From NCBI GenBank assembly GCA_016234725.1, contig JACRAK010000012.1, positions 10,619-74,618 of the forward strand: 64,000 nucleotides of DNA, in the 5' to 3' direction. Origin of the DNA: Candidatus Azambacteria bacterium. Lineage in GTDB: Bacteria; Patescibacteriota; Minisyncoccia; GWC2-36-17; WO2-46-25. The notes under the pieces are model-generated. The model saw only the letters and a list, made by a program, of their open reading frames with translations, was not told the origin of the DNA and searched no databases. Positions 14,640 through 33,882 of this stretch are shown piece by piece. The position numbers and the translations under genes were made by a program. Each line of letters opens with the position of its first letter. The stretch's first letter is position 1.

Positions 14640-15302
14640 CTACTGATTCGCAAAATTTCTCTCTGCTTCAGATAATGAGATCCCAAAGATTTCTTTGAAT
14701 TTTTCTTCAAACTGAGGATGGTAGTAGTTTTTATTCAAGGATCGTAATAATCCCAATATTTTTTCAAAGGAATATTTTTCTATCAAAAAGGAGGTAAACA
14801 AGCATGCATGTTTATATGCATCATGGTTAGCATATACGCTCCATCCATACTCAGTGGAGAGCTTCGCGACATAATTCTCTTCTATATAATATCCCCGCTG
14901 ATTTTTATATTGATCGACTTGGCCCGCTACATACATCGCTATCCCTTCATTCAGCCATACGGGAATGGCCGCCGCGCCCACGATCTTCTTTGCGAACGCA
15001 TGCCACAGCTCATGCTTTAAGATTTTTATAAAATCACTTTTTGGGTGAGAGCTTTGCTTTTCAAAAGAGTTCGGATGAAGAATGTCTATAGAACCATCCG
15101 CAGATGTGTTTCCCACATGCCATGGTGGTGTTTTCATCCCGATCCGCTTCTCATAGTTAGCTCTGGATTCGTGGAGTCGGATAACGATAGGGAAGTCGGC
15201 GGGTATGTGCAGCTGACCCCCGAGATCAGCAAGCGCCTTTTCAACTTCTTTCTTTATTACATTAAGACCCCTCTTCGGTCCTTGCAGCGTGAAATTACTC
15301 AT
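14640..15302 (-). CDS. HExxH-motif putative zinc metallopeptidase (paralog family 1 of 4)
   Basis: 220 aa; HELWH … NEGIAMY (HExxH+E); same architecture as 22081, 25568, 28265. Confidence 0.4.
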   Translation of the reverse strand: MSNFTLQGPKRGLNVIKKEVEKALADLGGQLHIPADFPIVIRLHESRANYEKRIGMKTPPWHVGNTSADGSIDILHPNSFEKQSSHPKSDFIKILKHELWHAFAKKIVGAAAIPVWLNEGIAMYVAGQVDQYKNQRGYYIEENYVAKLSTEYGWSVYANHDAYKHACLFTSFLIEKYSFEKILGLLRSLNKNYYHPQFEEKFKEIFGISLSEAERNFANQ

Positions 15303-22080: not shown

Positions 22081-22821
22081 CTAATGAGCCGGGGTTTTTA
22101 TTAATTCAATTACCTTATCAAGAAAGAGGGTAAAATTTTGCTTTGTTTTCTTATGCTTCTTGTATAATTGCAAGACTTTTTGTCTTATTTCTTTGTGACC
22201 ATAATAGCCGCGGTCAGGAAGATAAAGAAATTCGGAAAGATCCTCGTTTAGCAAAACTGTTAAAATTTCTTTTAGGTCCCCGACCTGTTTCTCGCCCAAT
22301 CCTTTTTCATTACAATAACCGCTATATCTTTTTAAAAATTCTATATGCATGATCTCGTGCGATGCTGTATTGGGGAAATCGCTAAATTGATTAAACATGA
22401 AGCTGTTCTTTCCAAAAGGAATTCTTTTCCCGAAGGTAAAATAAGCGCGATATTCTTTTTCAAATTCTTTAAGAGGAATATCTAGCATTTTTGAAAGACC
22501 TAAAAGGCATTCCTTGCCTGCTTCACCCCATCTTTTTTCTGCTCTTGCTGATATGTCTTTTATAATATGCGTTGCTTTGGGTGTTTTTAAGAATTTATCA
22601 AGAACCTTTTCTATTTTAGGAAGAATTTTTTCTTCGGAATCTGTTTTTTCAGCGAGTAATTCAATTTCCTGAGGAATGCCGCCCAAATCCCATTTTTTAT
22701 GCCCGCCGGCATCATACGATATATTTTTGACACATGAATCAACCCAATTTTTTAATTCCCAATCCTTATTAAATTCAAGTGTGATTTTAGGGAATAAGTT
22801 CTTTTTTGAGGCATTTTTCAT
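22081..22821 (-). CDS. HExxH-motif putative metallopeptidase (paralog, module A)
   Basis: Start set at MKNASKK; TASHEIMHIEF … ILTVLLNEDL, homologous to 28265 protein (TAMHEIMHIFF … MTVLLNLWF). Confidence 0.45.
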   Translation of the reverse strand: MKNASKKNLFPKITLEFNKDWELKNWVDSCVKNISYDAGGHKKWDLGGIPQEIELLAEKTDSEEKILPKIEKVLDKFLKTPKATHIIKDISARAEKRWGEAGKECLLGLSKMLDIPLKEFEKEYRAYFTFGKRIPFGKNSFMFNQFSDFPNTASHEIMHIEFLKRYSGYCNEKGLGEKQVGDLKEILTVLLNEDLSEFLYLPDRGYYGHKEIRQKVLQLYKKHKKTKQNFTLFLDKVIELIKTPAH

Positions 22822-22854
22822 GCGTTTAAAATACCATAAAAAGAGAAAATGCGC

Positions 22855-22890
22855 TAGCCTATTTAGGCTAGCGCATTTTGAGGCCGGAGA
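22855..22890 (-). terminator. Intrinsic terminator after peptide A (gcgctagccta-aat-aggctagcgc + U-rich)
   Basis: Perfect 10-bp stem immediately after peptide stop. Confidence 0.55.
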
Positions 22891-22894
22891 AGCG

Positions 22895-23026
22895 TTAATA
22901 ATCAGTGCAGCAGTCTCCGTCAGGACAGTCGCAGTCACTACACTGACTCGTGCAATCGAGCAAGGTCTTGCTGGCGACTTCTGATTCAGCAAGAACCAAA
23001 ACTCGATTTTTATCTGTTGTTCCCAT
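22895..23026 (-). CDS. Cys-rich RiPP precursor candidate A (43 aa, six Cys; SCIFF/ranthipeptide-like)
   Basis: Manual ORF MGTTDKNRVLVLAESEVASKTLLDCTSQCSDCDCPDGDCCTDY*; perfect SD aaggaggtgatc; ATG directly abuts the rSAM stop. Confidence 0.6.
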   Translation of the reverse strand: MGTTDKNRVLVLAESEVASKTLLDCTSQCSDCDCPDGDCCTDY

Positions 23027-24115
23027 TTAGATCACCTCCTTTGTTTTGACATGCCCCCAAATTAACTGTAAGGCTTTAAGTTCAATTAATCGTGGAATCA
23101 TGATCTTAAAGAGTTTGCAGTATGGGGAAGAAGTGGTGGCTAGGTCATGAGCTCCAAAATTGATGACGGGACATCCGCCCCCACAAACAAGAGACCACTG
23201 GCAATCTTGACAGCCCTTGTAATCAAGCACATCTTTTGAATGTAGTTCGGGAAAAGTGTCTTGAGACCACGCCATTTCCAAAAAGGTTTTCTTGGTTTCA
23301 AGATTGCCTATCGGCTTTTTATCCATCCTTGCCTGGCAAACAAATACATTGCCGTTATGATCAACGGCTACGCCGGAATGGCCAAGATTGCACCCTCGTA
23401 AATGAGGCTTCCTATCGAGATGAATCTCGCACAGCTGTTGCGCGGCAACGGCGCTATGATTACGAATTGCAAGAGCGTAATAATCATAGCAATCATTAAG
23501 GGCGCTCGAAGCTTTTTTCATAAAGTCTTCGTATCCCTTAAAATCTCCTACATTATCCCGATATAGACCATAACGAAACGGAATGCTTGCATCAATCAAA
23601 AAACGGCTCAGCATAGGCACGCCGGAAATATTTCTATCCGTTATGGTTGTTAGTATCGTCGGGCGGACATCATTCCCCATGCATAAGTTCAGATTTTTGG
23701 CCACGACATCAAAAGAACCGGTGCCAGCGCCGAAGAAGCGTGTTTTGTTGTGCCACTCACCTAAACCATCTAACGACATACAGACCCTCACCGAGTTATC
23801 TTTAATCATCTTTATTAGATTAAGATCGAGCAGAGTCCCGTTTGTCAGTAAGATTAATTTAGCGCGAATACCTTTTTCTACGAATCGTTTCTGAGTCTGT
23901 TCGATCAAAAAATTAATCAACGTTTTATGCAGCGTGGGCTCTCCTCCAGCAAGACGTATTGTTACTAGGTCCAGACCGTGATGGCTTACAGTTTGTTCAA
24001 GCTTATCCAGATATAAGCTTGCTGTCTGAAAAGACATGAACTTTTTGTCCTTATTTATATAACAGTAAGGACATTTTAAATTACAGCAGTTGGCTATATG
24101 GAGCCATGTGCTCAT
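23027..24115 (-). CDS. Radical SAM/SPASM-domain peptide maturase A
   Basis: CNLKCPYC (CxxxCxxC) and C-terminal SPASM CQDCQWSLVCGGGC; start at MSTWLH (upstream TTG extension possible). Confidence 0.7.
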   Translation of the reverse strand: MSTWLHIANCCNLKCPYCYINKDKKFMSFQTASLYLDKLEQTVSHHGLDLVTIRLAGGEPTLHKTLINFLIEQTQKRFVEKGIRAKLILLTNGTLLDLNLIKMIKDNSVRVCMSLDGLGEWHNKTRFFGAGTGSFDVVAKNLNLCMGNDVRPTILTTITDRNISGVPMLSRFLIDASIPFRYGLYRDNVGDFKGYEDFMKKASSALNDCYDYYALAIRNHSAVAAQQLCEIHLDRKPHLRGCNLGHSGVAVDHNGNVFVCQARMDKKPIGNLETKKTFLEMAWSQDTFPELHSKDVLDYKGCQDCQWSLVCGGGCPVINFGAHDLATTSSPYCKLFKIMIPRLIELKALQLIWGHVKTKEVI

Positions 24116-24185
24116 GCCCTTAACATTGTTTTTTTCTAGACTAGGTCTAAACAGCGGAGCATCTTTTGGTTGAATAAGTCCGTTT

Positions 24186-24491
24186 TCAAGCAGAAGTTTT
24201 ATCCGTGGCAAATCTTTCTCGGTCTGAAAAAGGGACAGATTGTCTATAAAGAAGCTTAGTTCTCATGTCGAGCAGGACCACGCCTCTTTTGCTTCCAGGG
24301 ACAAGCGCATAACCATAGCCGTCTACTTCTCCTGTGTAACAATTACCCGTCTTTTTATATGCCTCTATTTCCCTCATTTTCTTTCCTCCGTAGGTTTTAT
24401 GATGTTGTAAAAGATCTTTTCGTATTTGTCTTTCTAATAACATAACAATAGCGTTTTTGTCAAATTCTTCATAAGAAGGGTTACTAATCAA
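24186..24491 (-). CDS. Hypothetical 101-aa protein upstream of rSAM A (non-ATG start)
   Basis: ORF with TTG start and no SD; possibly an accessory/RRE-like protein or not expressed. Confidence 0.2.
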   Translation of the reverse strand: MISNPSYEEFDKNAIVMLLERQIRKDLLQHHKTYGGKKMREIEAYKKTGNCYTGEVDGYGYALVPGSKRGVVLLDMRTKLLYRQSVPFSDRERFATDKTSA

Positions 24492-25567: not shown

Positions 25568-26587
25568 ATGAAGCTACGATTTATAACATCAAAAATAGAG
25601 AATCAATTCTTCTTTATCGCGAATCTTTCTGAATGGCATTTTTCATGTCGATTAGATTATAACCAGGCGTGGATCGAGGAAACAGGAGCATTGAGCAATG
25701 AAGAGAAAAGGAAGCTCAAAGTCTTCGCAAGTATCTTGCAGAAACATGGATTTACTTACGATAAGAATGGAAAAACAAAATACATCGGTAAATATTTTTA
25801 TTGTTATTCGGAGGAAAAAGCATGGGAAGAATTGGGAAAAAATATTACCAAAAAAGAGGCCCTAAGAATAAAAAATGTTTTTAAGATTTTTGAACCACGA
25901 TTTGAAAAAACATGGAACCCGCAAGAGCTCGCGGCAAGAGTAAAAACAATACAAAGTTTTACAAAAGAAAAAAGATGGAAGGAGCTCGTGCAGCGCGTAA
26001 ATATATTATTTGGGGGGCCTGCCATAACAAAAAAGATTTTTATTGTTGTCTTGATTTCTCCTCTGGCAGGAGAAGGAGTGACGGCTGCCGGTAGCGCAAA
26101 TAACGGAGATCAATGCATAACATACGAGATTCCCAAATTAAAAAATGGAGGGTGGGAGCGTGATTATTCTATGGGAGTTTTAGCTCACGAGATCGCTCAC
26201 GCGTTGTTTTCTAAAAAAGGCGGCGAAAAAGAGATTGCAAAGATTATTAAAAAAGAAAATATTCCTGCGCATATAAAAGGATTCCCCACGAGCGCTGTTT
26301 CTGTGATTAACGAGGCCATTACAGAGAGCTTTATTCCCCTCGGCTACCTTGGTCAAAAATATGCTGGGAGAGACCTCGCTCCGTTATTGTTAGATAATAG
26401 CGATAAAGGATGGCTCACAGAAGAAAAGACAAAGAAAGAGAGAGGAATTAATTACCGCAATATAAGAAAATATCTTATCTGGCAATTGTATCCTCTTGCT
26501 GTTATATATGGACGACAAAGTAAATCCATCGATGCATATTTTATCAGGCAGGCAGTATTATTACTGAAAAATGCGCTCGGCAAATAA
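25568..26587 (+). CDS. HExxH-motif putative metallopeptidase (paralog, module B)
   Basis: 339 aa; GVLAHEIAHALF … VINEAITESF. Confidence 0.4.
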   Translation: MKLRFITSKIENQFFFIANLSEWHFSCRLDYNQAWIEETGALSNEEKRKLKVFASILQKHGFTYDKNGKTKYIGKYFYCYSEEKAWEELGKNITKKEALRIKNVFKIFEPRFEKTWNPQELAARVKTIQSFTKEKRWKELVQRVNILFGGPAITKKIFIVVLISPLAGEGVTAAGSANNGDQCITYEIPKLKNGGWERDYSMGVLAHEIAHALFSKKGGEKEIAKIIKKENIPAHIKGFPTSAVSVINEAITESFIPLGYLGQKYAGRDLAPLLLDNSDKGWLTEEKTKKERGINYRNIRKYLIWQLYPLAVIYGRQSKSIDAYFIRQAVLLLKNALGK

Positions 26588-26601
26588 AAAAAAGGCAACC
26601 G

Positions 26602-27681
26602 TTAGGGTGCCTGTGGTATTGCCGATGCTTTTTGGAGAAAAAGCTTGATGTAGTCGAACATCCTTTTTCTTGTCTCGCAAAAAGGGTAGTCTCCGCCATA
26701 GTTTCCTGTCGCCCAGTAGGAGTCGGCTCTGCATCCGCCACGACAAATTGCTACATATTCGCAACGGCCGCATTTTTCAGCATTGTGATTGCTTCTTATT
26801 TCAGCGAGCGCCTTAGTTTTTGATCCCGCTAAAGCATTGATCAGTGATTGGCTGAGGATGTTACCAAGCATAAACCTCTCTTCCACCAATGAACCACAGG
26901 GAACGATGTTTCCTTCTTGATCAATGGTGATCATTTTCTTTAAGCAAGAGTTAGCAAAGGAGCACCCTCTCGGTCTCTGGCCAAGAAGCGAGCGCATCAT
27001 TGTGTCGAGCGGCTCGATTGAGGGAAAAGAGTTTTCCGTATGCGCCCAAAGATCGAATACGTCCTTATAGAAAGCAAACATTTCATCGTTTGAGGGCATT
27101 ATCGGTCTTTCTGAAAGTGGCACGCTTTTTAGAGGCAGCAAGCCAAATGAGTTCACGCCGAGAGCTTCATAGAAATGAAATATCTCTTTGGCGCGAGAAA
27201 CATTTAGTTTACTTATAACAGAAAGAACACCAAGAGGCATGCCAGTCGCTTTTATTTCTGCGCAAGTTCTTAATAGCGCACTTATATCAGAGCGGCGATG
27301 AGCTATGTATACATCTGTTGGCGCATCAAGACTAATCCCCACATGGAAATCATTCTTTTGAAGAAAATCAATCCACGAGGCATCCAGCAAGAGGCCGTTT
27401 GTTTGGATGTTGTTGTGATATACAATGCCTCTTTTTTCCGTTTCCTCCTTCTGGGCATTTATTACTTCTTGATAAAAATTTTTACCAACAAGAAGCGGTT
27501 CGCCGCCATGCCAGCAGAACTCGACACTGTCAAAGCCGATGGAGGCATTATGAATCATAACCCTGATGTTTTTTATCTCGAACTTTTTTATGTTTCTTCG
27601 AGAGGCGCGTGAGTAACAATACACGCACTGAATGTTGCAGTCAGATCCCGTGATCATGATGATCGTCATGGCTTTCTTCAT
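26602..27681 (-). CDS. Radical SAM/SPASM-domain peptide maturase B
   Basis: CNIQCVYC and SPASM CGRCEYVAICRGGC. Confidence 0.7.
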   Translation of the reverse strand: MKKAMTIIMITGSDCNIQCVYCYSRASRRNIKKFEIKNIRVMIHNASIGFDSVEFCWHGGEPLLVGKNFYQEVINAQKEETEKRGIVYHNNIQTNGLLLDASWIDFLQKNDFHVGISLDAPTDVYIAHRRSDISALLRTCAEIKATGMPLGVLSVISKLNVSRAKEIFHFYEALGVNSFGLLPLKSVPLSERPIMPSNDEMFAFYKDVFDLWAHTENSFPSIEPLDTMMRSLLGQRPRGCSFANSCLKKMITIDQEGNIVPCGSLVEERFMLGNILSQSLINALAGSKTKALAEIRSNHNAEKCGRCEYVAICRGGCRADSYWATGNYGGDYPFCETRKRMFDYIKLFLQKASAIPQAP

Positions 27682-27756
27682 AAAATTCGCTCCCGTGTTT
27701 TTTTGAATGCGGATGTGGAGGGAGGGGGTATTTACTACCCCCTCCTGTTCGAGCTA

Positions 27757-27939
27757 TTACTTGGTGCTGGCGTCGCGATAATGATCGTGCGACGGTTGAT
27801 CGACCCAGTGATCGTGTTTCATGCTCAGCGAGTCACCGTTTTTAATCTTGGCAGTCGCTTGAGTAATGATCTTTTGCACGGGTCCGGATATGCAGACGCC
27901 TGACATATCCTTAACATGACTATCGATTCCGCGTTCCAT
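27757..27939 (-). CDS. 60-aa candidate precursor peptide B (His/aromatic-rich C-terminus)
   Basis: SD aaggagggtaaat-ATG; MERGIDSHVKDMSGVCISGPVQKIITQATAKIKNGDSLSMKHDHWVDQPSHDHYRDASTK; hairpin GGAGGGGG…CCCCCTCC between it and rSAM B. Confidence 0.45.
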   Translation of the reverse strand: MERGIDSHVKDMSGVCISGPVQKIITQATAKIKNGDSLSMKHDHWVDQPSHDHYRDASTK

Positions 27940-28100
27940 ATTTACCCTCCTTTCTTTGAGTTTTCAGCCCATTAGATGGCTGAAATTGGGGTTTCCATTA
28001 ACGAAATTATTAAAGGACATAACAAGCGCATATATACGCTTTTCCCTTTATGATGTCAACGCCCTGTGTATGCCGCGCCCTGTATGACACTGTATGGCAA

Positions 28101-28238
28101 GTTTAAGAAACTACGCAACCACTCAAAACATATTTTATCACCCAACAACCCCATTGTTTTTAAAGATAATCTGAAAAACCGGGCGTGGCGGAAGTTATGG
28201 CGGAAAACTTTGAAAAATAAAATTGTTTTTGATATGAT
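28101..28238. promoter_or_regulatory. Conserved regulatory element copy 2 between divergent promoters (rSAM-B operon on - ; HExxH c on +)
   Basis: about 125 bp about 90% identical to copy 3; -35 TTGAAA 28210-28215, -10 TATGAT 28233-28238; minus-strand TTGACA-17-TATATA at about 28020-28050. Confidence 0.6.
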
Positions 28239-28264
28239 GGAGAGGGAAATTAAACAAAGAAACA

Positions 28265-28978
28265 ATGAGCACCCCGCGTGTTATATTTTCTTACAATCAG
28301 GAAAAAGATATCAAAAACATTCAAATTGGACTTGATACTGTGAGTCGCGGCAGACAACCAGATAGAGAGCTTGTACAAATTATCCAGCAATACGGCAGCG
28401 CGCCATCAGAAGAAGACATCAAGGAATATTTAATTTCTCGATGGAAGAATAAAAGGGGTGTCCCTGACCTTATCGTAAAACAACTCCAAGAATATTGGGA
28501 CACAATAGAAGAAAAATATTTTAATCATCTTGCAGATCGAATGCAGCTCACGTCCTTTCATGGAATTAAACAGCTAGGCGGTTTTTTAAGTGTGCGTTAC
28601 GGAAGCGGTTATAATACTGAACAACAATGGTTTGCGGTAAGTGTGTATAATAGCACCCTAAAGAACACATTAACGGCAATGCATGAGATCATGCATATTT
28701 TTTTTCATAAACAATGGTGGGATTTTTGCAAAAAACAAGGATTGCCCGATAACAATATATGGGATGTAAAAGAATCAATGACGGTGCTTTTAAATTTGTG
28801 GTTTAAAAATCAGGTTATTGATACTGATTGGGGATATGATGAGCACGCCGAGCTTCGCCGTTTCATTATAGATTGGTTTTTGGAAACGAGAGATTTTAAA
28901 AAAACATTGGAAAGGGCGTGTATATATATGAAAGAACACTCAGAAAAAAGCCCTGATTGGATAACCAATCAGGGCTAG
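28265..28978 (+). CDS. HExxH-motif putative metallopeptidase (paralog, module C)
   Basis: 237 aa; TAMHEIMHIFFHK … ESMTVLLNLWF. Confidence 0.45.
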   Translation: MSTPRVIFSYNQEKDIKNIQIGLDTVSRGRQPDRELVQIIQQYGSAPSEEDIKEYLISRWKNKRGVPDLIVKQLQEYWDTIEEKYFNHLADRMQLTSFHGIKQLGGFLSVRYGSGYNTEQQWFAVSVYNSTLKNTLTAMHEIMHIFFHKQWWDFCKKQGLPDNNIWDVKESMTVLLNLWFKNQVIDTDWGYDEHAELRRFIIDWFLETRDFKKTLERACIYMKEHSEKSPDWITNQG

Positions 28979-29002
28979 TTTGCTGATGTAAAACACCAGC
29001 TT

Positions 29003-29155
29003 TTAGGAGCCATCGCAGCCGTCTGTGCCGCCGTGACATCCTGACTGGCATACGTTGCAGCCGCTGTTGTCACAGGTGCCACCGCTGTTGTCGCATGCGG
29101 CTAGTACGGTAGTAGCCGACGATCCTTCAATGAGCGAAGAAAAAGCGAGCTTCAT
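29003..29155 (-). CDS. Cys-rich RiPP precursor candidate C (50 aa, seven Cys)
   Basis: Manual ORF MKLAFSSLIEGSSATTVLAACDNSGGTCDNSGCNVCQSGCHGGTDGCDGS*; perfect SD aaggaggtgattg; downstream of rSAM C on same strand. Confidence 0.6.
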   Translation of the reverse strand: MKLAFSSLIEGSSATTVLAACDNSGGTCDNSGCNVCQSGCHGGTDGCDGS

Positions 29156-29226
29156 AACAATCACCTCCTTATTGGGAGTTTCTGTGTTTTGCTGACTCCT
29201 TCCCAGTGAGTAGCAAGTGGGGGTGT

Positions 29227-30534
29227 TTACACCACCAGCTCCAAAACATTTCTGCTGATAAGCTCGCTAAGAAAATGCAGATATTTTGCATTTTCCATAG
29301 AGATTTTATACATAGCGCGAAGAGATTTTGGAGTGAACGACAGTTTTTTGATGTGAATGTCTTCTATGAGATTCAGTGTCTCGTGCTCCACGAAGGTGTT
29401 TTTAATGCCACTCGTGTTGATTATCCCTAATGGTTCATCTCGGCGAAAGCGACAAGCTCTTCTTACGCGGAGCACCGTGTTGTTCTTAAGAAGCGCATGT
29501 GTTTTTGGAACCGCGCGTTTTTGAGCCATTTGTGCTCTCATGATCGAGTCTTCACCGTGAACATCGCCATTAAGGGAGGCGACTCGGCAGCCACCACCAC
29601 ACATAGCGACAAGCTTACAGGAAAGACAGGCCCGAGGAAGAAGAGATCCGTCACGCCACTGAACCATTTTTAACCAAATGGATTTCAAATCTTCAGTGGA
29701 AAGAGATCCATAAGCGATTTCGTGGTGGGGGCATGCGCGCACCGATCCATCTGAAGCAATGGCGATGGACGTTTTACCAGCAGAACAGGTTCGCTGACCA
29801 AGGAGGGAATAAGCATCGTCGTTGTCGAAAAAACAGATGGGGTAGGGAACGAGAGAGTCTAATTGCATGCCAGTGGTTTTCAGATCAAGTAGCTGGTCAA
29901 CAATTAAACCGACGCTTTTTATTGGAAGAGCGAGTTCCTTTGAAGACTGTTTGTTTGGTAAGCGCGGAGATGTAACGCGTGTCGCAGAAAATGCTACCAC
30001 CCCAAGCTTATGTGCAAACTCGCCAGTTTTTTTCACATCTAGCAGGTTTTGCTCCATTACAACCATATTTACAGCGGTGCGGATGCCGGCGGCATGAGCA
30101 CACTCAATACCCCGCACGATACGCTGAAAAGATCCTTTTGTGCCGGAAAGAGAATCGTGGGTATTGGAATCATACGATAAGAGCGATGTTAATATTGTTC
30201 GGAGTCCCACCGAAAAAAGCTCCTTTGCAATTTTTTCAGTAAGTAGAACAAGGTTTGAATTTAGGCTGAACGAGATTTTCCTCTTCGAAAGTTCCTTAAT
30301 GAGAAAAATAAGTTCGCCCTTATTTAGAAGTGGTTCTCCTCCTGTAAGTATGACGTGGAAAATCTTGTGGGCAGCAAGTTGCTCAGCAATTCGAATCGAC
30401 AACGCCTCCGAAATGCTTTTATTTGGAACTAATCCATCGTCTCGCCAAAAATTGTAGCAGTGGAAACATTTTTGGTTGCAGCCAGTATTGATTTCAACAT
30501 GAGCAGCTAGTGGAGCATCAAGCGTTTTATACAT
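29227..30534 (-). CDS. Radical SAM/SPASM-domain peptide maturase C with C-terminal PqqD-like (RRE-like) extension
   Basis: CNQKCFHC; SPASM CLSCKLVAMCGGGC; C-terminal about 110 aa …KKLSFTPKSLRAMYKISMENAKYLHFLSELISRNVLEL resembling PqqD/RRE; SD aaaaggaggctgtt. Confidence 0.7.
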   Translation of the reverse strand: MYKTLDAPLAAHVEINTGCNQKCFHCYNFWRDDGLVPNKSISEALSIRIAEQLAAHKIFHVILTGGEPLLNKGELIFLIKELSKRKISFSLNSNLVLLTEKIAKELFSVGLRTILTSLLSYDSNTHDSLSGTKGSFQRIVRGIECAHAAGIRTAVNMVVMEQNLLDVKKTGEFAHKLGVVAFSATRVTSPRLPNKQSSKELALPIKSVGLIVDQLLDLKTTGMQLDSLVPYPICFFDNDDAYSLLGQRTCSAGKTSIAIASDGSVRACPHHEIAYGSLSTEDLKSIWLKMVQWRDGSLLPRACLSCKLVAMCGGGCRVASLNGDVHGEDSIMRAQMAQKRAVPKTHALLKNNTVLRVRRACRFRRDEPLGIINTSGIKNTFVEHETLNLIEDIHIKKLSFTPKSLRAMYKISMENAKYLHFLSELISRNVLELVV

Positions 30535-30822: not shown

Positions 30823-31695
30823 ATGCACGATCTCGAAAATATTAAAATTATTATTGATAGCGATCGTAAGCTTTATGAAATTCATAGTTTCATAAGGAAA
30901 ACAATCGATATTTTTTTAGTCCCAATCTTAAATAGATTGCCACGTGGTTTATTTAGGAAATCAAGCAAAAAAGCAGAAACAGTGAATAAGCATGCAACAA
31001 CCCATAGAGCATTAGAAGTGATTTATTCGTTTAACAACCAGGTAAATTTCGAAAAAGGCATCTTCGACGGGTTTTTTACTTATTTTTGGCAGAAAACCAG
31101 TCATGCTAAGGCTTTAAGAAATCGGCTTAAATTAGTAAAGAGAGAGCTCTTAAAAGCAATACATTCTCTAAATAAAAAGGAAATAAAAATACTGAATCTT
31201 GCGTGTGGTTCAAATAGAGCGGTTATAGAGGTTGTGGGAATGCACAAAAACGATTTCGATTTTAAGGTATTTGGGATGGATAAAAATGAAAGCGCGATCG
31301 AAGATGCGAAAGCATTAACAACCGCTTTTGATGTTGACCATCTGTTTAGCTGGCATCAAAATACGGTTTCCGGTTTTTTAAAAGAGGCGGAGCAAGCCCA
31401 GTTTGATATAGTAGAGATGGTTGGATTTTTGGATTATGTGCCGGACGAGAAAGCCGTTTTTTTGTTTGATCAAATTTATTCAGTTCTGGCTGACGGCGGC
31501 TTCTTCATCACAGGGAATATAAAAGATAATAAGGAAAGAAGATTTGTTACCGAGGTGGTTGGTTGGCCGCATCTTATTTTTCGTAGCGAGAATGACCTTG
31601 CGAGAATATTGAAGCAATCCAAATTTAAAGACGCAGCTACCCATATCGTATACGAACCGCACAATATCCACGGAGTGGTAGTGTGTAAAAAATAA
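30823..31695 (+). CDS. Putative class I SAM-dependent methyltransferase
   Basis: ILNLACGSNRAV (motif I-like) and LADGGFFITG (post I/II). Confidence 0.4.
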   Translation: MHDLENIKIIIDSDRKLYEIHSFIRKTIDIFLVPILNRLPRGLFRKSSKKAETVNKHATTHRALEVIYSFNNQVNFEKGIFDGFFTYFWQKTSHAKALRNRLKLVKRELLKAIHSLNKKEIKILNLACGSNRAVIEVVGMHKNDFDFKVFGMDKNESAIEDAKALTTAFDVDHLFSWHQNTVSGFLKEAEQAQFDIVEMVGFLDYVPDEKAVFLFDQIYSVLADGGFFITGNIKDNKERRFVTEVVGWPHLIFRSENDLARILKQSKFKDAATHIVYEPHNIHGVVVCKK

Positions 31696-31704
31696 ATCCG
31701 TTTT

Positions 31705-33882
31705 GTGTTCTATTTTATAGCAACGTCTTTAGTAAATGCTTTTATTGCCGGCTTGCTCGGATTCCTTGTCATTTCAAAAAATTGGAGGGATCTCGCGAAC
31801 AAGTTATTTTTTGGACTTAGCATTTCTGTTGTCTTCTGGGCATTAAATTATTGGCAATGGCTTTCTTCTCAAAACGCAAATTCCGCGCTGGTTTTTTCAC
31901 GGCTATTTTCGGTAGGAGCTCTTTTTATTCCCATTTTTTATTTTCATTGGGTTCTTATTTTCAGCGGAACAAACAAACAATACAAGACATTTCTTAAAGT
32001 TTTATATTTCATCGCTTTTGTTTTTCTTTCCCTTTCCTTCTCAAAACTATTTATCGAAGGAGTGGGGCAAAAACTTTTTTTCCCTTTTTGGCCAACCCCC
32101 GGAATTCTTTACAATATCTATTTAATTGTTATCTATTTTGGACTCACGATCTATTCTTTGTTTATTCTCTGGAGGAGTTATATTCGTAGTAATGACAGCC
32201 ATCAGAAAGCAATCATTAAATATATCATATTGGGATCCTTCATTGGGTTTAGCGGGGGAGCAACAAACTTTTTCTTATGGTACGATATCCCGATTTTGCC
32301 GTATGGAAATATTCTTGTTAGTTTCTATCCCTTAGCTCTTGCTCTCGCCAGCTTCCGGCACGGCCTTTTCAACATCAAGGTCATCGCCACAGAATTGCTG
32401 ACGCTCACTGTCTGGATCGCGGTATTGGTTGAATTGATATTAGCTGAAACATGGGAAAAGCGGCTTTTGGAAGCGGGGTTGTTGGCGTTCGTGGTGGTGT
32501 CCGGTATTTTTATTATCCGCAGCGTGTTGAAGGAGGTTGAGCAGAAGGACAAGTTTAAAGATTTATCAGAACGACTGGAAAGCGCGAATGCGCAGCTTAA
32601 ACAAAAAACGCTGTATCTGACGACATTACAGGGGTTTACGCATGACATCGGCAGGACGCTTGATTTTAAGGAGATCACTCAAAAGATCGTTGACGGCATT
32701 TCGGAAAAATTTGGGTATCTTGCCGGCCTGCTTCTCTTGGTGTCCGAAGACGGCAAGATGATCTTTCCCGTTACTATCACGGAGAACACGATCACGAAGA
32801 TCGCGCTTAAGATATTGCCAAAACAGATGCATGAATATGCCGGCGATTTTGAGCATGACGATACGCTATCGATCCGGGCGGTCAAGGACAACGCGATACA
32901 GCAAAGCAATGCCATAGCCGATTTTCTCAGCCCGCCGATCTCCGAAACGCTGTGCGTGACGATCCAGAAGGCAACCGGGCTGAAATCCGGCGTAGCGATA
33001 CCGATACGCTCTGAAGGGAAGGCGATCGGCGTACTCGATATTTTTCTTGATCGGCCGAAAGAAGAGATAGGAGGCGACGAGCTCGAGGTGATGAAAACGC
33101 TTGCAAACCAGATCGGCATCGTACTCAAAAATGCATCGCTGTTCGAACAAGTGAAGGAAGCAAACGAAAAGCTGAAAGAATTGGACGATCTGAAAACGGA
33201 CTTTATTTCCATCGCGTCGCATCAGTTGCGTACGCCGCTCACGGCGATCAAGGGGTATACCTCTATGATCATGGAAGGGTCATACGGCGAGGTGTCTGAT
33301 AAAGTGAGAGTAACAATAGGAAAGGTGTTTCAATCCGCCCAGCGCCTTATTTATATCGTGAATGACTTGCTTGATATTTCCCGTATCGAGCAGGGGCGGT
33401 TTACCATTGCGCTTGAGCCGATAAAGGTGGCGAATGTGCTGAAAGATGTGGTGGAGGAGCTCCAGCAGAATGCAAAAAGCAAGAACCTTTCACTTGAGCT
33501 TGCGGTAGCACCGGAAAATATGGAGGTAACGGCGAGCGCCGACTTTAACAAGATACGGCAGGTGTTTTTGAATGTGATCGACAATGCGATCAAATATACC
33601 AACGAAGGATATGTGCGCGTGGGAGTTGAGAAGAGAGCGAATGATGTGCTTATGTCCGTAAAGGATTCCGGCATCGGTATTTCAGAGGCAAGCATGAAGA
33701 ATCTGTTCCAGAAATTCAGCCGGGCAAAAGGCGTGACAAAGCTCCATACCGACGGCTCCGGCCTCGGGCTCTTTATCGTCAAGAAGATCATGGAAGCCCA
33801 TGGCGGCACCGTGTGGGCGGAATCGGAAGGCGAAGGCAAGGGCTCGCAGTTTTATGTTTCCATCCCTTTGCAAAAGGAGTAG
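31705..33882 (+). CDS. Sensor histidine kinase with N-terminal 7TM domain, GAF-like region, HisKA and HATPase_c
   Basis: 7 hydrophobic helices; H-box SHQLRTPLTAIKGY; N/G1/G2 boxes; AT-rich 5' half vs GC-rich 3' half. Confidence 0.75.
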   Translation: MFYFIATSLVNAFIAGLLGFLVISKNWRDLANKLFFGLSISVVFWALNYWQWLSSQNANSALVFSRLFSVGALFIPIFYFHWVLIFSGTNKQYKTFLKVLYFIAFVFLSLSFSKLFIEGVGQKLFFPFWPTPGILYNIYLIVIYFGLTIYSLFILWRSYIRSNDSHQKAIIKYIILGSFIGFSGGATNFFLWYDIPILPYGNILVSFYPLALALASFRHGLFNIKVIATELLTLTVWIAVLVELILAETWEKRLLEAGLLAFVVVSGIFIIRSVLKEVEQKDKFKDLSERLESANAQLKQKTLYLTTLQGFTHDIGRTLDFKEITQKIVDGISEKFGYLAGLLLLVSEDGKMIFPVTITENTITKIALKILPKQMHEYAGDFEHDDTLSIRAVKDNAIQQSNAIADFLSPPISETLCVTIQKATGLKSGVAIPIRSEGKAIGVLDIFLDRPKEEIGGDELEVMKTLANQIGIVLKNASLFEQVKEANEKLKELDDLKTDFISIASHQLRTPLTAIKGYTSMIMEGSYGEVSDKVRVTIGKVFQSAQRLIYIVNDLLDISRIEQGRFTIALEPIKVANVLKDVVEELQQNAKSKNLSLELAVAPENMEVTASADFNKIRQVFLNVIDNAIKYTNEGYVRVGVEKRANDVLMSVKDSGIGISEASMKNLFQKFSRAKGVTKLHTDGSGLGLFIVKKIMEAHGGTVWAESEGEGKGSQFYVSIPLQKE

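What the first reader, a model, noticed from the sequence alone, without database searches (positions are those of the whole stretch)
26602..27960. Module B: 60-aa His/Trp/Tyr-rich peptide + attenuator hairpin + rSAM-SPASM (possible cyclophane/streptide-like chemistry)
ORF 27757-27939 (-) has a consensus SD (aaggagggtaaat-ATG) and a C-terminus …SMKHDHWVDQPSHDHYRDASTK with a single Cys, unlike A/C. The W-V-D and Y-R-D triads fit the aromatic-X-polar motifs crosslinked by three-residue-cyclophane-forming SPASM enzymes. A GGAGGGGG…CCCCCTCC hairpin between the peptide and rSAM genes resembles precursor/enzyme transcript attenuators.
Basis: inference. Interest (0 to 1): 0.7.

Follow-up and report, generated by a model that had tools for sequence, protein, structure and literature searches.

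The report
Conserved radical-SAM peptide cassette in CPR bacteria
A tiny uncultivated bacterium (Candidatus Azambacteria) carries a conserved three-gene set (a 60-residue His/Asp/aromatic-rich peptide, a radical-SAM enzyme that most likely cross-links it, and a zinc-protease-like partner) that belongs to the known class of ribosomal cross-linked peptides but to no described family.

Summary
The 60-aa ORF, the 10-bp hairpin and the rSAM/SPASM gene are all present as described.

The peptide is a real, conserved gene:
- 40 homologous peptides (27 distinct cores) lie beside orthologous rSAMs, mostly in Patescibacteria.
- The core motif is H-x-[HY]-[WYH]-x-[DE]-x-P-x-[HY]-[DE]-H.
- It occurs once per family locus and never in 1.19 Mb of non-family loci.

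The rSAM scores equally against the anaerobic sulfatase maturase and DynA models, and passes no curated cut-off. It lacks the Asp at the anSMEcpe position-277 site, which I recall (unverified) as the catalytic base. Its nearest relatives sit beside triceptide-like precursors. The most likely chemistry is therefore three-residue cyclophane cross-linking, at W45-V46-D47 and H51-D52-H53.

It encodes a zincin-fold HExxH protein, either a leader peptidase or a ChlH-like hydroxylase.

The hairpin recurs structurally in homologous loci, but here it lacks a U-tract.

Verdict: an uncharacterised variant of a known RiPP kind. The chemistry is inferred, not shown.

The parts
28031..28059 (-). Candidate sigma-70-type promoter for the precursor gene: TTGACA (28059-28054), 17-nt spacer, TATATA (28036-28031). 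It lies about 90 nt upstream of the ATG.
   Evidence: Read directly from the sequence. The consensus scan did not report it because the -10 hexamer ends in A. Inference only.
27757..27939 (-). Precursor peptide gene, 60 aa (GenBank HY839_01930). Leader is roughly residues 1-41, core residues 42-56, followed by a 4-residue tail.
   Evidence: ORF with SD AGGAGG. 40 homologous peptides lie beside orthologous rSAMs.
27865..27888 (-). Conserved leader motif S-G-P-V-Q-K-I-I (residues 18-25). The family pattern is [LV]-[SP]-x-P-[VIL]-x-x-[IL]-[IL]. It is the presumed recognition sequence for the maturase.
   Evidence: Alignment A3 and the additional peptides. The recognition role is inferred.
27772..27816 (-). 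Core HDHWVDQPSHDHYRD (residues 42-56). Conserved triads are W45-V46-D47 and H51-D52-H53, on either side of the invariant P49.
   Evidence: Column statistics over 27 distinct cores. Motif specificity test.
27721..27745 (-). Intercistronic stem-loop: 10-bp perfect stem, 5-nt loop, dG -20 kcal/mol, no U-tract. Probably a leaky terminator or an mRNA-stabilising 3' structure that raises the precursor:enzyme transcript ratio.
   Evidence: Analogous hairpins, with unrelated sequences, have z <= -2 in 10 of 14 family loci (this window included) whose intergenic region is at least 40 nt. Three of them have canonical U-tracts. Not called as a terminator in the window.
26602..27681 (-). Radical SAM/SPASM peptide maturase, 359 aa, with no RRE extension. 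CX3CX2C at C15/C19/C22. Eight auxiliary-cluster Cys: C240, C246, C262, C304, C307, C313, C317, C335.
25568..26587 (+). Conserved partner protein, 339 aa (GenBank HY839_01920), convergent with the rSAM gene. Zincin-like fold with invariant H207-E208-x-x-H211 and E249, plus an invariant N-terminal NLSEWHF motif. Either a leader peptidase or an alpha-KG/Fe hydroxylase.

Best explanation
Module B is a three-gene RiPP cassette in a Candidatus Azambacteria (Patescibacteria/CPR) genome.

**Proposed pathway**
1. The 60-aa precursor is bound through its conserved leader motif (…SGPVQKII…) by an anSME/ChlB-fold radical SAM/SPASM enzyme that has no RRE domain.
2. The enzyme reductively cleaves SAM.
3. 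It abstracts a C-beta hydrogen from the third residue of aromatic-X-X triads in the core HDHWVDQPSHDHYRD, and couples that carbon to the aromatic ring two residues upstream.
4. The product carries three-residue cyclophanes of the triceptide type.

**Predicted rings.** W45 to C-beta of D47, and H51 to C-beta of H53. That is -2 Da per ring, -4 Da in total. D47 sits two residues before the invariant Pro, the same register as the Cys/Ser that anSME attacks in C/S-x-P-x-R.

**Partner protein.** The convergently encoded HExxH zincin-fold protein then either removes the leader (slightly favoured) or beta-hydroxylates Asp/His in the rings, as ChlH does.

**Hairpin.** The stable hairpin between the precursor and enzyme genes limits read-through or protects the precursor transcript, so that the peptide message outnumbers the enzyme message.

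**Shown versus inferred.** Shown: gene conservation, synteny, motifs, folds, and absence of the anSME Asp. Inferred: the bond type, the ring positions, the role of the HExxH protein, the role of the hairpin, and the biological function of the product.
For: **The peptide is conserved and specific**
- It is conserved beside orthologous rSAMs in all distinct family loci. The profile search found 19 clusters.
- 39 of 40 peptides fit one core pattern, giving 27 distinct cores.
- The motif is absent from 1.19 Mb of non-family loci.

**The rSAM is a complete SPASM enzyme outside any named family**
- It has CX3CX2C and 8 invariant auxiliary Cys.
- All 11 members tested score anSME 184-225 bits and DynA 177-222 bits. 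None reaches a curated cut-off of 349 or 450.
- The column aligned to anSMEcpe D277 is Asp in 23 of 23 Bacteroidales anSME-like proteins. It is Asp in 0 of 45 family members (G/S/A/C/V), and S/S/S/A/S in the five nearest neighbours.

**The nearest relatives modify peptides**
- Three of three informative nearest-neighbour contexts have precursors full of aromatic-X-K/R/D triads: L168, L169 (YFR/YDR/YTR/HSR/YMK/YTK) and L171 (PYDK x3, HDK).

**No sign of a sulfatase role**
- No sulfatase signature is present in the window.

**Possible substrate-binding residues**
- The family-specific invariant residues R296 and R318 could pair with the acidic core, by analogy with HtkB D214 and Lys3 (PMC11499958).

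**The HExxH partner is conserved and zincin-like**
- It has conserved synteny, invariant H207/E208/H211/E249 and a zincin-like fold.
- Published precedent exists for rSAM cyclophane synthases working with HExxH enzymes that hydroxylate Asp and His (PMC12636437).

**The hairpin recurs**
-.
Against: - No chemistry was tested.
- The family fails every curated 3-CyFE model: GrrM/OscB 135 bits against 310, AmcB 130 against 425, YhhB 111 against 445, XyeB 65 against 450.
- It is as close to anSME as to any RiPP maturase.
- I have no evidence that an acidic residue at X3 of a triceptide ring has been characterised.
- Which triads are actually used cannot be told from sequence, because the core offers overlapping alternatives: H42-D43-H44, H44-W45-V46, Y54-R55-D56.
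- No transporter, immunity gene or other tailoring gene is conserved nearby, so the fate of the product is unknown.
- The HExxH gene is convergent, not co-transcribed.
- The window hairpin lacks a U-tract, and 7 of 21 loci have intergenic regions too short for any hairpin.
Confidence: 0.6

Rival explanations
1. Dynobactin/darobactin-type chemistry rather than the canonical triceptide C-C link. The same enzyme-peptide pair would make two unfused rings of a different bond type. Examples are a His-N to C-beta link in the H-D-H-Y segment, an ether link, or rings larger than three residues.
For: DynA (NF041298) is the best-scoring RiPP maturase model and equals anSME: 203 bits here and 177-222 bits across the family. 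It matches end to end and the proteins are the same length, 356 against 359 aa. Fourteen of the 106 nearest neighbours reach E <= 1e-90 on DynA. The core layout W-x-D…linker…H-x-H-Y-R loosely resembles dynobactin WNSNVHSYRF (sequence from PMC10125368). The bond types of dynobactin are recalled from memory only.
Against: The score is far below the DynA cut-off of 450 bits. The precursor shares no detectable homology with DynA peptides. The aromatic residue after the second His (position 13) is Thr or Ser in 11 of 27 cores, so a His-to-Tyr link cannot be universal. The producers are CPR bacteria, not nematode symbionts.
Confidence: 0.2
2. The peptide is a sacrificial scaffold for a small molecule or a metal-binding product, along PQQ/mycofactocin or metallophore logic. 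The rSAM would cross-link an aromatic and an acidic residue, and the HExxH protease would excise the product for use inside the cell.
For: The cassette of peptide + rSAM-SPASM + metalloprotease-like protein, with no exporter or immunity gene, matches the PqqA/E/F and MftA/C/E logic. The parallel with those systems rests on established knowledge. The core is extremely rich in His and Asp: 4 His and 4 Asp in 15 residues.
Confidence: 0.08
3. The enzyme is an anaerobic sulfatase-maturating enzyme (Cys/Ser to formylglycine) acting on a sulfatase encoded elsewhere, and the small ORF is incidental.
Against: The score is below the 349-bit cut-off in all 11 members tested. The Asp at the anSMEcpe-277 position is absent in 45 of 45 family members, against 23 of 23 present in Bacteroidales anSME-like proteins. 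No sulfatase signature is found in the 64-kb window. The small ORF and its core motif co-occur strictly with the enzyme. The core has no conserved Cys or Ser in the C/S-x-P-x-R register; Asp or Glu sits there instead.
Confidence: 0.03
4. Sub-hypothesis on the partner gene: the HExxH protein at 25568-26587 is an alpha-ketoglutarate/Fe(II) beta-hydroxylase of Asp/His in the pre-formed rings (ChlH-like), not a peptidase.
Confidence: 0.35

Closest known systems
Triceptides and their three-residue cyclophane-forming rSAM enzymes (3-CyFEs: XyeB, GrrM/OscB, YhhB, HaaB, HtkB, ChlB)
   Different: It fails all curated 3-CyFE HMM cut-offs. There is a single non-repeated 15-residue core with an invariant Pro between two triads. 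The third ring position would be acidic (Asp/Glu) or His, rather than Lys, Arg, Asn or Ala. The family is almost confined to Patescibacteria. No cross-link has been demonstrated.
ChlBH: fused rSAM cyclophane synthase + alpha-KG HExxH hydroxylase (Chlorogloeopsis; PDB 9gm3, 8s5f)
DynA / dynobactin (NF041298)
   Same: It is the best-scoring RiPP maturase model, at about 200 bits over the full length, and has the same domain layout. The core has two aromatic/His segments separated by a linker.
   Different: The score is less than half the 450-bit cut-off. The precursor is unrelated. The producer phylum differs. No BamA-related context is present.
Anaerobic sulfatase-maturating enzyme (anSMEcpe, PDB 4K36-4K39; TIGR03942)
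   Same: It is the closest solved structure and the top HMM. All three clusters' Cys ligands are conserved. The target-like residue D47 sits at -2 from a Pro, like the Cys/Ser of C/S-x-P-x-R.
   Different: The score is below the cut-off. The Asp at the D277 position is replaced by Gly, Ser or Ala in the whole family. No sulfatase is present. A dedicated co-conserved peptide is present instead.
PQQ and mycofactocin pathways (PqqA/E/F, MftA/C/E)
   Same: The gene logic is the same: small peptide + rSAM-SPASM + peptidase, with no exporter. In PQQ the cross-link joins an aromatic and an acidic residue.

Membership tests
Radical SAM / SPASM subfamily | CX3CX2C cluster motif in a radical SAM core | tested here: met
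   C15, C19 and C22. PF04055 scores 57.2 bits against a cut-off of 29.5.
Radical SAM / SPASM subfamily | C-terminal SPASM domain with Cys ligands for two auxiliary 4Fe-4S clusters | tested here: met
   PF13186 scores 29.9 bits (cut-off 21.5) and TIGR04085 57.7 bits (cut-off 27). C240, C246, C262, C304, C307, C313, C317 and C335 are invariant in 43 sequences.
Anaerobic sulfatase maturase (TIGR03942) | Score above the curated equivalog cut-off (349.45 bits) | tested here: not met
   207.7 bits for the window protein and 184-225 bits for ten other family members.
Anaerobic sulfatase maturase (TIGR03942) | Asp following the Aux-I Cys (D277 of anSMEcpe). I recall it as the catalytic base, but the source paper could not be retrieved. 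| tested here: not met
   It aligns to G263. Asp occurs in 0 of 45 family members, against 23 of 23 Bacteroidales anSME-like proteins.
Anaerobic sulfatase maturase (TIGR03942) | A sulfatase substrate carrying C/S-x-P-x-R | tested here: not met
   No PROSITE-type sulfatase signature is present in the six-frame translation of the window. The rest of the genome was not available.
DynA dynobactin maturase (NF041298) | Score above the curated cut-off (450 bits) | tested here: not met
   202.8 bits, and 177-222 bits across the family.
DynA dynobactin maturase (NF041298) | Dynobactin-type precursor core (WNSNVHSYRF-like) | tested here: not met
   The core is HDHWVDQPSHDHYRD. It shares only a loose W…H.YR layout (PMC10125368).
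Triceptides / 3-CyFE | An rSAM/SPASM maturase encoded beside its precursor peptide | tested here: met
   Synteny holds in every distinct family locus.
Triceptides / 3-CyFE | Conserved aromatic1-X2-X3 motifs in the core | tested here: met
   [WYH]-x-[DE] occurs in 27 of 27 distinct cores, and [HY]-[DE]-[HY] in 25 of 27 (24 with His at the third position). The pattern used to extract the cores fixes these positions, but 39 of 40 peptides fit it.
Triceptides / 3-CyFE | Aromatic carbon to C-beta cross-link on a three-residue ring | not testable with these tools
   This needs MS/MS and NMR of the co-expressed product.
Triceptides / 3-CyFE | Score above the cut-off of a curated 3-CyFE model (GrrM/OscB, AmcB, YhhB, FxsB, XyeB) | tested here: not met
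   135.1 bits against 310; 129.5 against 425; 111.2 against 445; 76.3 against 370; 64.9 against 450.
Gluzincin (clan MA) metallopeptidase, for the 25568-26587 protein | HExxH plus a downstream Glu ligand on a separate helix | tested here: met
   H207, E208, H211 and E249 are invariant in 20 sequences. E249 lies in helix 243-253 of the model.
Gluzincin (clan MA) metallopeptidase, for the 25568-26587 protein | Match to a curated peptidase family model, or a significant fold match | tested here: inconclusive
Alpha-KG HExxH beta-hydroxylase (ChlH/BpmH/PflC type), for the 25568-26587 protein | Membership of the HExxH hydroxylase sequence family | tested here: not met
   No NCBIfam hit at E <= 0.01. 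A profile search of PDB sequences does not retrieve 8s5f at E <= 1.
Alpha-KG HExxH beta-hydroxylase (ChlH/BpmH/PflC type), for the 25568-26587 protein | Structural similarity to ChlH | tested here: inconclusive
Intrinsic (Rho-independent) terminator, for the hairpin | GC-rich stem immediately followed by a U-tract | tested here: not met
   The stem is present, but the tail reads CTCCACATCC. The scan did not report it. Homologous loci L009, L093 and L095 do have U-tracts.

The most novel reading that the evidence does not exclude
The cassette makes a doubly ring-locked, His/Asp-rich peptide with two unusual features. The rings are closed onto acidic or imidazole C-beta positions, and the stand-alone HExxH partner is a divergent ChlH-like oxygenase that adds beta-hydroxy-Asp/His. 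Together these would create a metal-chelating peptide (a metallophore or metal buffer), or a host-directed effector, specific to ultra-small CPR bacteria. That would be a new RiPP subclass and a new HExxH enzyme family, in organisms thought to have minimal secondary metabolism.
Probability: 0.12. Interest if true: 0.8.

Novelty: new variant of a known kind. Interest (0 to 1): 0.55.

Why it matters
Patescibacteria/CPR have tiny genomes and are usually described as poor in secondary metabolism. This Azambacteria contig nevertheless carries three rSAM-peptide modules within about 9 kb.

Module B defines a compact family that is conserved mainly across Patescibacteria, with a few members in Bacteroidota and Ignavibacteriota. 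The family has a precursor motif, a maturase and a partner protein that match no curated model.

If the predicted chemistry holds, it would extend triceptide-type cyclophanes to acidic and His third positions. It would also supply a new stand-alone HExxH partner, either a peptidase or an oxygenase.

The small size of the cassette (about 2.4 kb, three genes) makes it directly testable by co-expression.

The family also gives a clean sequence discriminator between sulfatase maturases and look-alike peptide maturases: the residue after the Aux-I Cys is Asp in the former and Gly/Ser/Ala in the latter. This is useful for annotation.

Tried and rejected
- **Genome scan with the single rSAM protein** found nothing. 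It was repeated with the family alignment.
- **Rfam scan of 26300-28400** gave only chance-level hits with E of about 0.4. No riboswitch or known RNA is present.
- **Terminator scan** does not call the hairpin.
- **Foldseek of the HExxH model against the PDB** found nothing significant. The afdb50 library was not available.
- **PDB sequence search with the HExxH profile** gave only marginal hits, with best E 0.0097 to a 'zinc metallohydrolase lipoprotein'.
- **ChlH-type sequences for a profile comparison.** I looked among the long (660-806 aa) rSAM neighbours, but they are tandem rSAM-rSAM fusions, not rSAM-HExxH fusions.
- **The anSME structure paper** (for D277) could not be retrieved. The catalytic-base role of D277 therefore rests on my recollection, together with the 23 of 23 conservation in anSME-like proteins.
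- **Literature searches for this family in CPR/Patescibacteria/Parcubacteria** found nothing.
- **A conserved exporter, immunity gene or extra tailoring gene** was looked for. None recurs, and none lies nearby in the window.
- **A sulfatase in the window** was looked for and not found.
- **'Chance ORF' reading** was considered and rejected on conservation.
Full report
**1. What is in the sequence.**

On the minus strand, ORF 27757-27939 encodes a 60-aa peptide: MERGIDSHVKDMSGVCISGPVQKIITQATAKIKNGDSLSMKHDHWVDQPSHDHYRDASTK. An AGGAGG Shine-Dalgarno lies 6 nt before the ATG.

Seventy-five nucleotides downstream starts a 359-aa ORF (26602-27681). It matches Radical_SAM (PF04055, 57 bits) and SPASM (PF13186, 30 bits; TIGR04085, 57.7 bits against a cut-off of 27).

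The intergenic region holds a perfect 10-bp stem, GGAGGGGGTA/TACCCCCTCC, with a 5-nt loop at 27721-27745. Its dG is -20 kcal/mol. The region has MFE z = -4.6, and 0 of 200 shuffles fold as well. No U-tract follows, and the terminator scan does not call it.

A plausible promoter lies about 90 nt upstream of the peptide gene: TTGACA, 17 nt, TATATA at 28059-28031. This was read by eye and not otherwise tested.

**2. Source.**

The neighbouring 339-aa protein is 100% identical to HY839_01920 of a Candidatus Azambacteria bacterium MAG, and the peptide is HY839_01930. The lineage is Patescibacteria group, Parcubacteria group, Candidatus Azamiibacteriota. An independent Logan assembly carries the same three genes, all of them called.

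**3. The peptide is a conserved gene tied to the enzyme.**

A protein search with the rSAM found about 48 homologues at 42-85% identity, followed by a gap down to 31%. Most named sources are Patescibacteria (Jorgensenbacteria, Pacebacteria/Paceibacterota, Minisyncoccia). A few are Bacteroidota or Ignavibacteriota.

Every distinct family locus recovered contains a 57-80-aa ORF with a homologous C-terminus. It usually lies immediately upstream of the rSAM. In L004 it lies beyond the partner gene instead.

A profile search added further peptides. Of 40 peptides, 39 fit one pattern, giving 27 distinct 15-residue cores. The exception has a 4-residue insertion.

| Core position | Residue counts in 27 distinct cores |
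|---|---|
| 1 | H 26 |
| 3 | Y 15, H 11 |
| 4 | Y 15, W 9, H 3 |
| 6 | D 25, E 2 |
| 8 | P 27 |
| 10 | H 13, Y 13, C 1 |
| 11 | D 21, E 6 |
| 12 | H 24 |
| 13 | Y 13, T 10, W 2, H 1, S 1 |

The leader carries a conserved [LV]-[SP]-x-P-[VIL]-x-x-[IL]-[IL] motif.

The core pattern occurs once per family locus. It occurs once in all six frames of the 64-kb window. It never occurs in 146 non-family loci totalling 1.19 Mb.

Y-R-D does not. The conserved second triad is [HY]-[DE]-H, which is H51-D52-H53 here.

**4. What the enzyme is.**

It has CX3CX2C (C15, C19, C22) and eight invariant Cys for two auxiliary clusters. It has no N-terminal RRE extension.

Against NCBIfam, the best models are the anaerobic sulfatase maturase (207.7 bits, cut-off 349) and the dynobactin maturase DynA (202.8 bits, cut-off 450). 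These are followed by the cyclophane-forming GrrM/OscB (135), DarW (135) and AmcB (130). None reaches its cut-off. Ten further family members give the same near-tie: anSME 184-225 bits and DynA 177-222 bits.

Two further observations do.

- **The Asp after the Aux-I Cys.** This is D277 in anSMEcpe by the numbering of the alignment. I recall it as the proposed catalytic base but could not retrieve the paper. It is Asp in 23 of 23 Bacteroidales anSME-like proteins. It is never Asp in 45 family members (G 24, S 11, A 5, C 4, V 1). It is S/S/S/A/S in the five closest non-family representatives.
- **The closest non-family relatives with usable context sit beside peptides rich in aromatic-X-K/R/D triads.**
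  - L168: …KYSDQHCDEPRNSPGQYIDHANHSD.
  - L169: YFR, YDR, YTR, HSR, YMK and YTK repeats.
  - L171: PYDK three times, plus HDK.
  - These are the hallmark of triceptide precursors (definition in PMC11499958).

An exhaustive HMMER search shows the family as one tight cluster (512 bits) at the edge of a continuum of 2,704 proteins with E <= 1e-30. Few of these reach strong scores on any named model. No sulfatase signature exists in the window.

Family-specific invariant residues include R296 and R318, next to the cluster Cys317. Basic residues would suit an acidic substrate. This parallels the HtkB D214 / Lys3 pairing (PMC11499958), but it is inference only.

**5.

The only other gene that recurs beside the rSAM is the homologue of window 25568-26587. 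It is found in 14 of 20 loci analysed, this window included. It is usually convergent with the rSAM gene, and their 3' ends abut or overlap.

It has no Pfam or NCBIfam match. It does have invariant H207-E208-x-x-H211 and E249, and an invariant N-terminal NLSEWHF motif.

The literature shows that HExxH proteins partnered with cyclophane rSAMs can be alpha-KG/Fe oxygenases. These beta-hydroxylate Asp and His within pre-formed rings, and some can also hydrolyse peptide bonds (PMC12636437). Characterised triceptides are cleaved just before the first ring (PMC12912966).

I therefore keep two readings:

- **Leader peptidase, about 0.55.** Support: the better peptidase fold matches, an NEAITE third-ligand helix resembling thermolysin's, and the mostly anaerobic lifestyle of the hosts.
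- **ChlH-like hydroxylase, about 0.35.** Support: the genomic context, and the Asp/His-rich core whose [HY]-[DE]-H triad resembles ChlB's native Y-D-R motif.

**6. The hairpin.**

| Loci, this window included | Count |
|---|---|
| Distinct family loci examined | 21 |
| Peptide-rSAM spacer of at least 40 nt | 14 |
| Of those, MFE z <= -2 | 10 |
| One more locus, L093: terminator-like hairpin overlapping the stop codon | 1 |
| Spacer of 1-36 nt, no room for a structure | 7 |

The stems share no sequence, so the structure and its position recur rather than the sequence. Three have canonical U-tracts (L009, L093, L095). Three have partial ones. The rest, including the window, have none.

This fits a leaky terminator or a 3'-stabilising stem that biases transcript levels toward the precursor, as is commonly described for RiPP operons. 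The function is inferred. No Rfam family matches.

**7. Mechanism proposed.**

1. The leader is bound by the RRE-less enzyme.
2. The enzyme cleaves SAM.
3. It abstracts the C-beta hydrogen at D47. This residue lies two positions before the invariant P49, the same register as the Cys/Ser attacked by anSME in C/S-x-P-x-R (the register argument is mine).
4. The radical adds to the W45 ring. A second ring forms in the same way from H51 to C-beta of H53. The expected mass change is -4 Da.
5. The HExxH protein then trims the leader or hydroxylates the rings.

The product's role is unknown. No exporter or immunity gene is linked. With 4 His and 4 Asp in 15 residues, a metal-binding role is possible.

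Confidence that this is a RiPP precursor-maturase pair is about 0.9. Confidence in three-residue aromatic-to-C-beta cyclophanes specifically is about 0.5-0.6.

**8. Comparison and novelty.**

It works most like a triceptide system, and it resembles ChlBH in pairing an rSAM with an HExxH protein. It is not a member of any curated family: the anSME, DynA, GrrM/OscB, AmcB, YhhB, FxsB and XyeB cut-offs all fail.

Full-text searches of the held library found no description of this family, nor any rSAM RiPP precursor work in Patescibacteria or Parcubacteria. That library is incomplete.

I rate it a new variant of a known kind. It is of moderate interest, compact, and directly testable.

Noticed in passing
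window 22081-24211 (-): Module A. The rSAM/SPASM gene at 23027-24211 scores best on the PapB ranthipeptide maturase model (142 bits, below the 340 cut-off). A 43-aa Cys/Asp-rich ORF follows directly downstream (22895-23026, …LLDCTSQCSDCDCPDGDCCTDY), and then an HExxH protein (22081-22992, HEIMH). It looks like a separate thioether-type RiPP module in which the precursor lies after the enzyme gene.
   Followed up: partly
window 28265-30534: Module C. The rSAM/SPASM gene at 29227-30534 (-) scores best on the GeoRSP and NirJ2 models, below their cut-offs. A 53-aa Cys/Gly-rich ORF lies downstream (29003-29164, …ACDNSGGTCDNSGCNVCQSGCHGGTDGCDGS). A convergent HExxH protein (28265-28978, +) is homologous to the Module A HExxH protein (E 1e-13), but resembles the Module B protein only around the motif itself.
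   Followed up: partly
window 14640-15302 (-): A fourth zincin-type protein (Peptidase_MA_2, PF13485, 38.7 bits) lies about 7 kb from Module A. This stretch of the genome is unusually rich in HExxH proteins.
   Followed up: no
window 14000-40000: G+C is 0.34-0.46 over roughly 14-40 kb, against 0.51-0.55 in most flanking 2-kb windows (a few dip to 0.44-0.49). The low-GC stretch holds all three rSAM modules. It also holds housekeeping genes (a class I Trp/Tyr-tRNA synthetase, thymidylate kinase), so it is not obviously a horizontally acquired island.
   Followed up: partly
L007:4656-4958, L089:717-1043, L094:2226-2552: Three family loci show no Module B-type HExxH partner in the fetched sequence. 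They share instead a homologous ORF of about 100-108 aa beside the precursor/rSAM pair. This may be an alternative accessory protein.
   Followed up: no
L004:7276-7470: In this Jorgensenbacteria locus the precursor gene lies beyond the HExxH gene rather than upstream of the rSAM. The cassette order is therefore not fixed.
   Followed up: partly
L090:3739-4098: One family locus also encodes, just past its Module B-type HExxH gene, a protein similar to the Module A and Module C HExxH proteins of the window (tblastn E about 3e-15). The two HExxH types can co-occur elsewhere.
   Followed up: no
proteins P0093, P0103, P0114, P0117, P0121, P0138, P0158, P0180, P0183: Among the nearest relatives of the rSAM are proteins of 660-806 aa with two Radical_SAM regions each. 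They are tandem rSAM-rSAM fusions of unknown role.
   Followed up: partly
L171:545-880: The precursor beside neighbour rSAM P0087 has an N-terminus that looks like a twin-arginine signal (SRRELLAGLGALVAGAG), followed by PYDK and HDK repeats. It may be an exported triceptide-like precursor.
   Followed up: no
window 27690-27756 (-): In the predicted fold, GCUC just after the peptide stop codon pairs with GAGC inside the rSAM gene's GGGAGC ribosome-binding region. This encloses the main hairpin. The helix is weak (4 + 3 bp) but could couple rSAM translation to the state of the structure.
   Followed up: no
window 26602-27681 (-): The window's own rSAM protein did not appear at 100% identity in the large protein collection (best hit 85%). 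Both of its neighbours (HY839_01920 and HY839_01930) did. The gene is called on the Logan contig L167.
   Followed up: no
window 30823-33882 (+): A SAM-dependent methyltransferase (30823-31695) and a 7TM-GAF histidine kinase (31705-33882) lie next to Module C. No response regulator was noticed nearby.
   Followed up: no
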